A DNA stretch of 64,000 nt from a virus. The notes below the pieces were generated by a model. The model worked only from the letters and a program-made list of their open reading frames with translations, made no database searches and was not told the origin of the DNA. This document shows positions 18,786 through 21,453 of this stretch, one piece after another. The first letter of the stretch is position 1; each line of letters begins with the position of its first letter. Made by a program: the position numbers and the translations under genes. The DNA is taken from positions 1 to 64,000 of the IMG/VR virus record IMGVR_UViG_3300033233_000004. One strand, 5' to 3'.

Positions 18786-18788
18786 AAT

Positions 18789-18926
18789 TTACTTCTCCTT
18801 AGAATGACAGGATATACAGATTGTGCCAACAAGATCGTTTGGATGCACTAAGTCTCCACAAAGAGAGCATGTCACCCTTTTGTCCTTGTCAGTATCAATT
18901 ATCGTTGAAACAGTCTTGGTTAACAC
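18789..18926 (-). CDS. Small zinc-finger protein (45 aa, not in ORF track)
   Basis: GTG start; MLTKTVSTIIDTDKDKRVTCSLCGDLVHPNDLVGTICISCHSKEK. Confidence 0.55.
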   Translation of the reverse strand: MLTKTVSTIIDTDKDKRVTCSLCGDLVHPNDLVGTICISCHSKEK

Positions 18927-19002
18927 GGTGTACCTATACCTATGATTACATACAATACTTAGAAAAAAGGATTGATGTTTTATAGTGGGTGTAAGCAGAA
19001 AA

Positions 19003-19034
19003 ACAATAAAAATGGGGCAGTATTAGTGCCCCAT
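19003..19034 (-). terminator. Rho-independent terminator ending the RAMP/guide operon
   Basis: atggggca-N7-tgccccat stem followed by a U-tract on the minus strand. Confidence 0.85.
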
Positions 19035-19083
19035 GCAGGAATCAGGGAATATAAAGAAATGATACCTTTTGAACTAAATTTCA

Positions 19084-19365
19084 ACCGTAACAAACCCGAA
19101 CGTACCGTGCCTTGACTAACCTCGCAGCATCATACAAAACCTAATTTTTGAACTATGAAACACTTTTAGAGCATTTCATAGTTATATAAACCGAACTCTA
19201 CCCCAACGCACCATACCCCAACTTACCATACCGAGTCCTACCTAACCTTATTTTCGAACCATGTAACACCTTTAGAGCATCACATGGTTAATGTAACCAA
19301 ACTCCACCATAACCCAACTTACCACAACGCACCTAAACATAACATACCAAGCCGCGCCTTACCTT
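19084..19365 (-). ncRNA. Downstream guide-like array: three GGY/GTY-NN pentamer tracts (19084-19143, 19190-19249, 19296-19365) and two 33-nt hairpins (19151-19183, 19257-19289)
   Basis: 12, 12 and 14 in-phase pentamers; hairpins have 14-bp stems and a CUAAA loop. Confidence 0.85.
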
Positions 19366-19377
19366 ATGAAAAGAGTC

Positions 19378-19977
19378 TTACACGCTCTTCACGGATACAA
19401 CACTGAATCGTCCATGCTCAGGTCGCCAGTCACCGAGACCAACCACTCTACCAGCTACATCAACGAAACGCTTCACAGCCGCTTCCTCAATGAGGTCAGG
19501 CATAAATGTCACATTGAATGCCAAAGCCCATTCAGCAAACTCAGGACGAGTACGCATAACACTCGACCCCATGTTGACCTTGACTGCCGTGTAGCTCTTA
19601 TTGTTACCCTCGGAATACAGTTTCTTGATGTCCTTGGCACCAGTGTATTCAAGAACCGCATCTGCCTCGACAATGATGCTGGACTTGGCGGTCGTGGCTT
19701 CCTTGGATTTCTTTGCCGCATTCACAAGGGTCGCCTTGAGAACGTAATCTGGAATTACAACTTGTTTCTTGTCATTCAGATACAAACTGGCGAACCATTC
19801 GAGACGACCCATCTCAAGATAGTCCTCGTCCGTCTTGTTCTTCTTTTTAGAAATGGCTTTCATCGCCTTTGATACTTCGGAAAGTGGGTCTTTCAACGCC
19901 ACACCATTGTGAAGAATTAGGCTACTATCGCCCTTGATTTTGAACTGCAATGTTTGTACACCTTTGGCGTTTGCCAT
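19378..19977 (-). CDS. Stand-alone Cas7/RAMP-like protein (Vipr-like), 199 aa
   Basis: Start corrected to ATG 19977 with AAAGGA RBS. RAMP hallmarks: FKIKGDSSLILHN, VVIPDYVLKATLVNAA, RTRPEF..W, and G-rich loop AGRVVGLGDWRPEHGRFSV. Confidence 0.8.
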   Translation of the reverse strand: MANAKGVQTLQFKIKGDSSLILHNGVALKDPLSEVSKAMKAISKKKNKTDEDYLEMGRLEWFASLYLNDKKQVVIPDYVLKATLVNAAKKSKEATTAKSSIIVEADAVLEYTGAKDIKKLYSEGNNKSYTAVKVNMGSSVMRTRPEFAEWALAFNVTFMPDLIEEAAVKRFVDVAGRVVGLGDWRPEHGRFSVVSVKSV

Positions 19978-20060
19978 TGTGATTATTCCTTTGCTTTGTT
20001 CGTGAATCATTGTATCGTTACTGCATGTCGAACGACTTGACCTTTGAAAATAAAAAAGAA

Positions 20061-20367
20061 ACCACACCTTACCGAGCCGAAAAACTACCGCAACTCACCC
20101 TACCGTAACGGGACAAACCGTACCACGCCATATTTTACATCTTGAACCTTGAAGCACCTTTAGAGCACTTCAAGATTGAATTTCAACCATACCTTAACGG
20201 AACAAACCGCATCTCACCACAAACATAACGCACCGAGCCGCACCGTGCCTCGCCATATTTTTTTGAACTCCGACCAGCCTTTAGAACTAATCGGAATTGA
20301 GAAACTTACCGTACCACGACTTAACTTACCGAGCCTAACCCTGACTCACCATATCCGAACCGAACCA
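20061..20367 (-). ncRNA. Upstream guide-like array: three GGY/GTY-NN pentamer tracts (20061-20131, 20186-20256, 20303-20367) and two 33-nt hairpins (20145-20177, 20266-20298)
   Basis: 14, 14 and 13 pentamers (two tracts carry a 1-nt insertion); same hairpin architecture as the downstream array. Confidence 0.85.
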
Positions 20368-20369
20368 AA

Positions 20370-21323
20370 TTACACTCTTTGTGCTTTCTTTTTTCCAACC
20401 ACACTTACCAACGCAGACCCACGCTTCTTTGAACGCAGTGTACGCTTCTGACTCTTCACAGGCGTAGTCTCCACCTTCGTCCGTTCAATAGGACGAAATG
20501 TAAAGCCCTGCCGTGCAAGCATTGGTCGAGCGTACTTCTCGGCAACTTTCCTCAGTTCTTCTGCCTTGCGTTGCTTCATGTCGTCTTCACTCATACCAGT
20601 GTACCCTTGCATCGCTTCCTCGACTTCTCTCGGAATAGAATAGAGAAGTGGTTTGTGTGTAATACCAGTATTGTCCACGGTAATAAGAAGTGCACCAATG
20701 GATACCGTGTTTCCATACCCCATGAACTCGGTAGGATATTCCCAACAACCGTTGTGGATGATACGCACGGCACCATCGAACTTCTCTTCATACCGATGAA
20801 GATGTGCACCAACCAACATAGCTACTGGTTGCATCTCACTGTGACGTGTACGTTGAAACACAATGCGTTGTTCTGTCATAGTATTTCGAGATTTATGCGT
20901 GAAGACTATATCCCCATATGGAGTACCTATTGTTTGTATAACTTTATGATGCTTACCGCCCAATTTTTCAGTTACCTGTCGGTCTGCATCAAAACCCGAC
21001 CCCTTACCATAGTGGTAACCACTACCTGTTACACCGAGAACACGAATCTTTCCACCATAGAGCAATGGCTGAATCAGTCTAACAGCATCAGATACCTGTT
21101 CATCTACGTCAGTCAACCAAAGAGTAGACGAATCTTTGTGAGCATTACCATCGACCATATCTCCAAGTAAGACGATAGTATCAATAATAGGTAATACTAA
21201 TCGAACCATATATTCCCATTGATCTATAGCCCACGTCTGGAATGCATTCATACTTTTATTAGCACGTGAAGCAAGACCGTACTGAGAACCATCATGTATA
21301 TCATTAAGGACGAGAATATTCAT
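20370..21323 (-). CDS. Calcineurin-like metallophosphoesterase
   Basis: NDIH, LGDMVDG, GSGYH, TH, GAHLH motifs; basic C-terminal tail. Confidence 0.8.
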   Translation of the reverse strand: MNILVLNDIHDGSQYGLASRANKSMNAFQTWAIDQWEYMVRLVLPIIDTIVLLGDMVDGNAHKDSSTLWLTDVDEQVSDAVRLIQPLLYGGKIRVLGVTGSGYHYGKGSGFDADRQVTEKLGGKHHKVIQTIGTPYGDIVFTHKSRNTMTEQRIVFQRTRHSEMQPVAMLVGAHLHRYEEKFDGAVRIIHNGCWEYPTEFMGYGNTVSIGALLITVDNTGITHKPLLYSIPREVEEAMQGYTGMSEDDMKQRKAEELRKVAEKYARPMLARQGFTFRPIERTKVETTPVKSQKRTLRSKKRGSALVSVVGKKKAQRV

Positions 21324-21347
21324 TTATTATCCCTTTCTGTTATACAA

Positions 21348-21376
21348 AAGATACAACAAAAAAACTTGAAAGTCAA
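21348..21376 (-). promoter_or_regulatory. Sigma70-type promoter
   Basis: TTGACT-17 nt-TATCTT; twin of 34849-34877. Confidence 0.7.
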
Positions 21377-21390
21377 GAGAAATCTGAACT

Positions 21391-21428
21391 AAAAAATCCA
21401 GTGCATACAAGTTATTGTAAACACTGGA
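21391..21428 (-). terminator. Intrinsic terminator after the groEL operon
   Basis: tccagtg..tacaa / ttgta..cactgga stem with U6 tail on the minus strand. Confidence 0.7.
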
Positions 21429-21453
21429 CTTACGTAAGCATACGTCTACTATC

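What the first reader, a model, noticed from the sequence alone, without database searches (positions are those of the whole stretch)
19084..20367. Decoded dinucleotide strings give searchable gapped targets, possibly skipping codon wobble positions
Plus-strand NN strings (complement of the guide RNA): T1 GT AA CG GT GT TT TA TC GC AT AA TA; T2 GA CT CC GC AT CC TT AT GA CT TA TT; T3 AA CC AT CC TT AC GC TA AT AT AA GC TT TT; T4 AC TT GA GA CT GC TC CT GT GG AA GT AC AT; T5 AT TT GG AA GC TC AC AT GC GA GC GT TC AT; T6 TT GT AC TT TT GA TA CT TC AT CG CG CA. All six differ, as spacers would. TG and AG never occur. Inference: if one target base is skipped per NN, the pairs could be codon positions 1-2 (T4 could read TLEELASLVGKVTI), which would make recognition insensitive to synonymous escape. 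This is weak evidence, since any dinucleotide string can be read as codons. I saw no self-target in this window by eye.
Basis: partly seen in the sequence, partly recalled or inferred. Interest (0 to 1): 0.75.

Follow-up and report, generated by a model that had tools for sequence, protein, structure and literature searches.

The report
Phage VIPR guides, one target decoded
The six five-base-periodic tracts are guide RNAs of a VIPR system, a CRISPR-related phage weapon first published in 2026, and read with its skip-every-third-base rule one guide spells the most conserved motif of the tail tape-measure gene of rival phages, so this is a well-supported new example of a known kind.

Summary

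The tracts flank a 199-aa gene that matches the solved SUSP1 Vipr protein (PDB 36pp) over its full length, E 5.3e-20. Six residues named in the published structure paper (five that hold the guide's two G bases or its pyrimidine, one that contacts the target backbone) are conserved. This is a VIPR system as described in three 2026 bioRxiv preprints.

I tested the rule on this locus. Exact 1-nt-skip scans found nothing for five guides. Guide T5 hit 9 IMG/VR contigs and 8 metagenome contigs, 15 of the 17 in long open frames. The ORFs I scanned are annotated tail tape-measure proteins. The best hits match 13 of 14 NN. The skipped base is always codon position 3 and varies freely.

There is no self-target in the 172-kb genome. 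The targets of the other five guides remain unknown.

Locus-specific details:
- a metallophosphoesterase as the likely accessory gene
- hairpin tails instead of a pseudoknot
- GTY as a frequent variant of GGY

Earlier notes of this scan record VIPR findings in at least 23 other genomes. Verdict: a new member of a known kind.

The parts
21348..21376 (-). Promoter-like site (TTGACT-17-TATCTT) upstream of the cassette
   Evidence: Consensus scan only. The region holds fewer such sites than its shuffles, so this is weak evidence.
20370..21323 (-). 317-aa metallophosphoesterase, candidate VIPR accessory (vap) gene
   Evidence: Weak Pfam Metallophos hit, E 0.0016. D8, H10, G54, D55, H174 and H176 are invariant in 5 homologs. 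The AF2 model (pLDDT 69.5) is nearest to Mre11 and the PolD-DP1 exonuclease, TM 0.45-0.51. A 52%-identical homolog in related phages L042/L043 again lies between GGY/NN tracts, next to a distant Vipr.
20266..20298 (-). Hairpin 1 behind vrRNA 1
   Evidence: Consensus fold of the four hairpins: 14 pairs, 7 with compensatory changes, none broken.
Its NN spell the tape-measure motif (I/M)(D/E)TASAIVEALPNI.
20145..20177 (-). Hairpin 2 behind vrRNA 2
   Evidence: (I3).
19378..19977 (-). vipr gene, 199 aa (RAMP-family guide-binding protein)
   Evidence: PDB 36pp_D 'SUSP1 Vipr protein', E 5.3e-20, residues 9-194. H23, K40, R144, D183, W184 and R185 align with SUSP1 H17, K33, R138, D177, W178 and R179. 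phrog_4652, E 1.5e-43. 144 metagenomic homologs.
19257..19289 (-). Hairpin 3 behind vrRNA 4
19151..19183 (-). Hairpin 4 behind vrRNA 5
   Evidence: (I8).
19012..19034 (-). Intrinsic terminator-like hairpin ending the cassette

Best explanation
The region is a VIPR (Viral Interference Programmable Repeat) cassette on a complete 172-kb phage genome. It is read on the minus strand as: promoter, metallophosphoesterase, three vrRNAs, vipr, three vrRNAs, terminator.

Inferred from the solved SUSP1 system: each vrRNA is coated by one Vipr protomer per 5-nt unit. The protomers hide the G-G/U-Y triplet and present the two variable bases. The NN then pair with double-stranded DNA in which every third base is skipped.

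The skipped base is at the wobble position. The guide has the same sense as the mRNA, so it can pair only with the template DNA strand.

Inferred: binding blocks transcription of the rival's tail operon during co-infection. The wobble-blind code, aimed at a conserved motif, makes escape costly. The metallophosphoesterase may add a nuclease step.
For: - Vipr homology to PDB 36pp over the full length, with conserved G1, G2, Y3 and backbone-contact residues.
- Six tracts of 12-14 units on the gene's strand, with an invariant pyrimidine at triplet base 3.
- Relatives of the protein carry the same kind of tracts with different NN.
- The 2.6-kb cassette is absent from a syntenic sister phage.
- No self-target at skips 0-2.
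- NN composition fits codon positions 1-2 by +7 to +8 bits, against -10 to -27 bits for the other phases.
- The T5 window at skip 1 gave 9 IMG/VR hits and 8 metagenome hits. Fifteen of these 17 lie in long ORFs, in frame. The four complete or near-complete ORFs I scanned carry PHROG tape-measure annotations.
- Four contigs match 13/14 NN. Two more at 13/14 were retrieved by protein homology alone, and both carry the guide's GA at NN2.
- Five scans of other guides with 20 specified bases gave 0 hits in IMG/VR, and one more gave 0 in the metagenome collection. This sets the background.
- The real T5 order scores 14/14 at amino-acid level, against at most 9/14 for shuffles.
- The motif is the most conserved block of that region.
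- The published mechanism is in 10.64898/2026.04.26.720920.720927 and 10.64898/2026.10.15.759431.
Against: - No contig matches all 14 NN.
- Five of the six guides have no target in what I could scan.
- Collection scans allow only exact windows, so I could not run the full comparison of skips 0-3 against shuffled guides on large collections. The loci I compared locally were found through the skip-1 pattern.
- 29% of triplets are GTY, although the residues that hold G2 in SUSP1 are conserved.
- Two guides lack the conserved hairpin.
- Expression, RNP formation and silencing are not shown for this phage.
- The host, and whether the rival phages share it, are only inferred. The nearest cultured relatives of the tape-measure protein are Flavobacterium siphophages at 28% identity.
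Confidence: 0.88

Rival explanations
1. The system destroys its targets instead of only silencing them. The co-transcribed metallophosphoesterase would be an Mre11-like nuclease recruited to, or acting on, Vipr-bound DNA, as proposed for the published nuclease-bearing VIPR types III-V.
For: The metallophosphoesterase sits inside the cassette that the sister phage lacks. A 52%-identical homolog again lies among GGY/NN tracts next to a very divergent Vipr in L042/L043. The nearest folds are the Mre11 and PolD-DP1 nucleases. Metal-binding motifs I, II and V are invariant. The C-terminal tail is basic.
Against: The model is of moderate quality (pLDDT 69.5), with TM-scores of only 0.45-0.51. Non-nuclease members of the fold (Vps29, LpxH, Ap4A hydrolase) score nearly as well. 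The usual GNH motif III reads SGYH here. No relative of the closer Vipr clade that I looked at carries this gene. No assay exists.
Confidence: 0.3
2. The guides act on RNA (mRNA of rivals or host) and not on DNA, as in type III CRISPR.
For: Vipr is a RAMP relative of Cas7, and some Cas7 complexes target RNA. This is general knowledge, with no result here in its favour.
Against: vrRNA 2 has the same sense as the tape-measure mRNA in every in-frame hit, so it cannot pair with that mRNA. The published SUSP1 complex binds double-stranded DNA, and targets occur on both strands.
Confidence: 0.03
3. The tape-measure match is a coincidence, or the tracts are not guides at all (for example protein-binding DNA repeats or a structured leader).
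For: An 18-base pattern is expected to give a few chance hits in a collection the size of IMG/VR. This is my own estimate, about 2, because the collection size is not stated. L018, in a 70-aa open frame, looks like such a chance hit; L023 is cut by the locus end and cannot be judged.
Against: At least 7 of the 9 IMG/VR hits and all 8 metagenome hits are in one gene family, in frame. The positions left free in the search also agree with the guide: 8 of 10 bases in the best IMG/VR hits, and NN8 = GT in 7 of 8 metagenome hits. Homology-retrieved members reach 13/14. Shuffled guides reach at most 9/14. The Vipr protein next door is a full-length homolog of a solved guide-binding protein.
Confidence: 0.03

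Closest known systems
VIPR systems, type example Escherichia phage SUSP1 (type II; Vipr + vap1 + vrRNAs; PDB 36pp; bioRxiv 10.64898/2026.04.26.720920, 10.64898/2026.04.26.720927, 10.64898/2026.10.15.759431)
   Same: - A small RAMP protein with the same guide-binding residues.
- vrRNAs of 12-14 pentamer units (fixed triplet ending in a pyrimidine, then NN) in the intergenic regions on both sides of vipr.
- A structured element behind the guides.
- The 1-nt skip rule, with the skip at the wobble position.
- A target in a competing phage.
- No self-target.
- A minimal phage-borne cassette.
   Different: - The Vipr protein is a remote homolog of SUSP1 Vipr (E 5.3e-20).
- 29% of triplets are GTY.
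- The tail is a plain hairpin with a conserved apex, not a pseudoknot, and two of six guides lack it.
- Some units have 6 nt.
- The neighbouring gene is a metallophosphoesterase, not a winged-helix or HTH protein.
- The known target is a tape-measure gene, not a satellite recombinase or a lysis-lysogeny regulator.
- The type within the authors' seven-type scheme could not be assigned.
Class 1 CRISPR effector backbones (Cas7 filaments of types I and III)
   Same: A RAMP protomer binds each repeat unit of the guide. A thumb flips out bases at fixed intervals, so pairing is segmented. Basis: statements in the structure paper.
   Different: - No CRISPR array, no cas genes and no acquisition module lie beside it.
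- The period is 5 nt with 3 hidden bases, against 6 nt with 1.
- The target skips 1 base in 3.
- No PAM has been reported.
VIPR types III-V with enzymatic vap genes (nuclease or helicase), as summarised in 10.64898/2026.04.26.720920
   Same: A predicted enzyme of a nuclease-containing fold is encoded with vipr and the guides.
   Different: The main text of that paper names HNH nucleases and helicases, and does not contain the word 'phosphoesterase'. Those types are enriched in cellular defence islands, whereas this one is on a lytic-type large phage.

Membership tests
VIPR system | A Vipr protein: a minimal RAMP with an RRM core, a glycine-rich loop and a thumb that bind the guide | tested here: met
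   phmmer against PDB gives 36pp_D 'SUSP1 Vipr protein', E 5.3e-20, over residues 9-194 of 199. SUSP1 H17, K33, R138, D177, W178 and R179 align with H23, K40, R144, D183, W184 and R185. The fold itself was not modelled here.
VIPR system | vrRNAs of about 9-16 tandem YNNGG units, with a conserved GGY (or related) triplet and hypervariable NN, in the intergenic DNA flanking vipr on its strand | tested here: met
   Six tracts of 12-14 units on the minus strand. The triplet ends in a pyrimidine in 79/79 units; it is GGY in 47 and GTY in 23. All six NN strings differ. Relatives L001/L002 encode the identical Vipr protein but different NN.
VIPR system | A conserved structured 3' tail behind the repeat tract | tested here: inconclusive
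   Four of the six guides are followed by a hairpin with 14 pairs, 7 of them covarying, and a conserved apex. It is not the SUSP1 pseudoknot. vrRNA 3 and vrRNA 6 lack it. RNA ends are unknown without sequencing.
VIPR system | Natural targets under the 1-nt skip rule at 80% or more NN match | tested here: met
   Met for one guide of six. T5 matches 13/14 NN in L027, L030, L032, L034, L045 and L046, and 12/14 in five others. On L045/L046, skips 0, 2 and 3 give 16-18 of 28 bases, against 26 at skip 1. The other guides gave no exact-window hit.
VIPR system | The skipped target base mostly falls on codon position 3 | tested here: met
   All hits that lie in long ORFs (15 of 17 pattern hits, plus 2 retrieved by homology) have NN at codon positions 1-2, with freely varying third bases. 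Composition test.
VIPR system | No self-targeting at 80% or more NN match | tested here: met
   The best matches in the 171,836-bp genome at skips 0-2 are 17-20 of 24-28 bases, the same level as shuffled guides. No significant protein-level near-self match after correcting for 12 tests.
VIPR system | A vap accessory gene next to vipr | tested here: inconclusive
   The only other gene in the cassette is a metallophosphoesterase. It recurs with a divergent Vipr and GGY/NN tracts in L042/L043. I could not tell whether it equals one of the published vap1-6, because the supplementary tables are not held.
VIPR system | vrRNA expression, a Vipr-vrRNA complex, and dsDNA binding with transcriptional repression | not testable with these tools
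   Needs small-RNA sequencing, pull-down and reporter assays.
VIPR type II (SUSP1 / P. fulva clade) | Position in the authors' Vipr phylogeny, a vap1 DNA-binding partner, and a pseudoknot tail | not tested
   The authors' tree and representatives are not available. The partner gene and the tail seen here differ from those of SUSP1, which argues against simple type II membership.

The most novel reading that the evidence does not exclude
This cassette and the one in L042/L043 may represent a VIPR subtype not covered by the published seven types. It would be phage-borne, with hairpin-delimited guide arrays, a relaxed G-K-Y triplet and a metallophosphoesterase (Mre11-like) accessory enzyme. That enzyme would turn guide binding into degradation of rival-phage DNA instead of silencing alone.
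Probability: 0.3. Interest if true: 0.5.

Novelty: new member of a known kind. Interest (0 to 1): 0.33.

Why it matters
It gives an independent, purely computational confirmation of the VIPR skip-one-base code in a phage lineage far from the E. coli and Pseudomonas models. This lineage is a 172-kb uncultured phage, probably infecting a Bacteroidota or other FCB-group host.

It also adds a new class of natural target: the most conserved motif of a rival's tape-measure gene.

Three small, testable details come out of it:
- A 6-nt guide unit does not shift the target register.
- TCN-to-AGY serine recoding is a synonymous change that the wobble-blind code cannot ignore.
- A metallophosphoesterase travels with two very different Vipr proteins.

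None of this changes the published picture.

Tried and rejected
- Rfam at gathering threshold on the whole window: no family.
- blastn of the locus against cultured phages: no match.
- Single-protein search for Vipr relatives in IMG/VR: none.
- Exact skip-1 scans of IMG/VR with 10-NN windows of T3, T2, T1, T4 and T6: 0 hits each. The T3 3' window in JGI metagenomes: 0. The T5 22-base pattern in 185,579 species genomes: 0.
- Host finding through the T9SS-cargo protein in genome contigs: no relative.
- tblastn of the padded T5 peptide against cultured phages: no match. Peptides this short fall below the E-value limit.
- Local scans of all guides at skips 0-3 over the sister phage and other GroEL phages (300 kb), the whole records G001-G003 and other rival fragments (116 kb), and L045/L046: only T5 at skip 1 stands out.
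- All guides decoded in both orientations against 120 tape-measure homologs: only T5.
- A 9/13 NN match of T6 at 122332-122370 of the genome looked interesting (p about 0.02 before correction). It lies in a minus-strand ORF with the skip at codon position 1 and is below 80%, so I treat it as chance.
- The own-genome stretch 94772-94813 (8/14 NN for T5) is in a 119-aa open frame. The genome has no homolog of the targeted tape-measure family.
- PDB hits of Vipr residues 56-91 to designer PPR proteins come from summing many weak repeat matches, so I rejected them.
- PADLOC and NCBIfam gave nothing useful for either protein.

Full report
**What is there**

On the minus strand the region reads as two clusters of three tracts each, on either side of a 199-aa gene at 19378-19977. 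Each tract is a run of 12-14 five-base units made of two variable bases followed by a fixed triplet.
- The tracts lie at 20303-20367, 20186-20256, 20061-20131, 19296-19365, 19190-19249 and 19084-19143.
- I decoded them independently.
- The triplet ends in a pyrimidine in all 79 units. It is GGY in 47, GTY in 23 and something else in 9.
- T5 and T4 each hold one 6-nt unit. The first three or four units of T6 can be read in a second frame.
It reflects a shortage of C at the first variable base in RNA sense: 5 of 79, p about 0.003-0.01 under every codon or background model from this genome. Relatives do not share this shortage.

**What it is**

The 199-aa protein has no Pfam family. It matches PDB 36pp chain D, 'SUSP1 Vipr protein', over residues 9-194 at E 5.3e-20.

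Six SUSP1 residues named in the structure paper are conserved as H23, K40, R144, D183, W184 and R185:
- H17 and D177 bind G1.
- R138 and W178 bind G2.
- R179 lines the pyrimidine pocket.
- K33 contacts the target backbone.

That led me to three preprints:
- 10.64898/2026.04.26.720927: cryo-EM structures, triplex R-loop.
- 10.64898/2026.10.15.759431: phage-satellite competition.

These papers describe this architecture. They already state that the skipped target base usually lies at the codon wobble position and that this defeats synonymous escape.

**Context**
- The genome is a complete 171,836-bp phage record with terminal repeats.
- A sister phage (L004; GroEL 73% identical) keeps the flanking genes in order but lacks the 2.6-kb cassette of metallophosphoesterase, guides and vipr. 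No such tracts occur in the 21.6 kb of it that I hold.
- The protein family is large in metagenomes, with 144 hits.
- Three relatives I fetched carry GGY/GTY-NN tracts on the gene's strand. L001 and L002 encode the identical Vipr protein but different NN.
- Four of the six guides are followed by a hairpin with 14 pairs, 7 of them with compensatory changes.
- A promoter-like site and a terminator bracket the unit.

**Testing the code on this locus**

The own genome holds no match at skips 0-2 above the shuffle level. The skip-3 hits are the guide genes themselves.

I built dinucleotide models from the phage's own ORFs. The 79 NN fit codon positions 1-2, in either orientation, at +7 to +8 bits over background. 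They fit the other phases at -10 to -27 bits. This test does not depend on finding a target.

Public collections can be scanned only for exact patterns, so I used windows of 9-11 NN at skip 1.
- Five guides gave nothing in IMG/VR.
- T3 gave nothing in JGI metagenomes.
- The 3' window of T5, with 18 specified bases and the irregular unit left free, gave 9 IMG/VR contigs.

When extended to the whole guide, these contigs match 9 to 12 of 14 NN. All spell variants of one peptide, (V/I)NTASAI(V/A/T)EALPNI, with freely varying third bases. Seven of the nine lie in open frames of 546-1037 aa, in frame and in the guide's sense. The complete or near-complete ones are tail tape-measure proteins by PHROGs.

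A 22-base version of the pattern gave 8 metagenome contigs, all in long ORFs:
- Four match 13/14 NN (27 of 28 bases).
- The only miss is NN2, which is AA or CA where the guide has GA.

A protein-homology search with the tape-measure C-terminal region does not depend on the DNA pattern. It found 130 relatives.
- One reads MDTASAIVEALPNI, which is 14/14 at amino-acid level. At DNA level it is 13/14, because its serine is AGT and not TCN.
- Another reads IDTASAIVEALPNP, also 13/14.
- Both carry the guide's GA at NN2.
- On these two loci, skips 0, 2 and 3 reach only 16-18 of 28 bases, against 26 at skip 1.
- Shuffled T5 guides reach at most 9/14 in the family.

The motif is the most conserved block of that part of the protein. 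The targeted family has no homolog in this phage. Its nearest cultured relatives are Flavobacterium siphophages at 28% identity.

**What this shows and what it does not**
- Shown: the NN of T5, read with one skipped base per unit, correspond to a conserved coding motif of a gene family of other phages, with the skip at the wobble position.
- Shown: the guide has mRNA sense, so only the template DNA strand can pair with it. That argues for DNA and against mRNA as the target.
- Shown: the extra base of the 6-nt guide unit does not shift the target register.
- The mismatch common to the four metagenome contigs at 13/14 lies at the 5' end of the guide. This agrees with the published 3'-to-5' growth of the R-loop.
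- Not shown: expression, complex formation or silencing in this phage.
- Not shown: a perfect 14/14 target.
- Not shown: any target for the other five guides.

**The neighbouring gene**

The 317-aa protein keeps metallophosphoesterase motifs I, II and V. Its model (pLDDT 69.5) is nearest to Mre11 and the PolD-DP1 exonuclease, although other members of the fold score close behind.

Its 52%-identical homolog in related large phages (L042/L043) again lies among GGY/NN tracts. It sits next to a 192-aa protein that is a remote Vipr relative, E 8.3e-5 to 36pp.

Two very different Vipr proteins therefore travel with the same enzyme, which makes it a likely accessory gene. The main text of the discovery paper names winged-helix, HTH, HNH and helicase partners and does not contain the word 'phosphoesterase'. 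Its supplementary tables are not held, so I cannot say whether this partner is new.

**Verdict**

The locus is a new member of the VIPR family, with one decoded natural target and a few local peculiarities. Earlier notes of this scan record VIPR findings in at least 23 other genomes. Interest is moderate to low.

Noticed in passing
L004:11646-12408 versus window 18786-21453: The sister phage IMGVR_UViG_3300003890_000082 keeps the genes on both sides in order but has about 300 bp where this phage has the 2.6-kb VIPR cassette. The cassette therefore behaves as a gain or loss unit.
   Followed up: partly
L042:5217-7150 and L043 (same layout): Related large phages carry a second VIPR variant. It has a 192-aa remote Vipr homolog, two guides, the metallophosphoesterase homolog (52% identical), then further guides whose 3' ends share a different conserved tail (GAT AA GAT AA GGG TT GTT).
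   Followed up: partly
L045:3884-3925: A tape-measure gene spells the T5 peptide perfectly at amino-acid level but uses AGT for serine where the guide reads TC. Six-fold codon families (Ser, Leu, Arg) allow synonymous changes that a wobble-skipping guide still reads.
   Followed up: no
L001:5633-5975 versus L002:5633-5941: Two contigs encode the identical Vipr protein but differ in the number of units and in many NN of their three downstream guides. This is a direct view of guide turnover.
   Followed up: no
window 19084-20367: 23 of 79 fixed triplets are GTY, although the residues that hold the second G in SUSP1 Vipr are conserved. The first variable base is C in only 5 of 79 units.
   Followed up: partly
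genome 122332-122370 (beyond the window): T6 matches 9 of 13 NN here, seven of them in a row. The site is in a minus-strand ORF with the skipped base at codon position 1, so I judged it a chance match.
   Followed up: yes
window 19378-19977, protein residues 56-91: phmmer lists designer pentatricopeptide-repeat proteins at E about 1e-9 for one 36-residue helical stretch of Vipr. The score is a sum of many weak hits to identical repeats and is probably meaningless.
   Followed up: no
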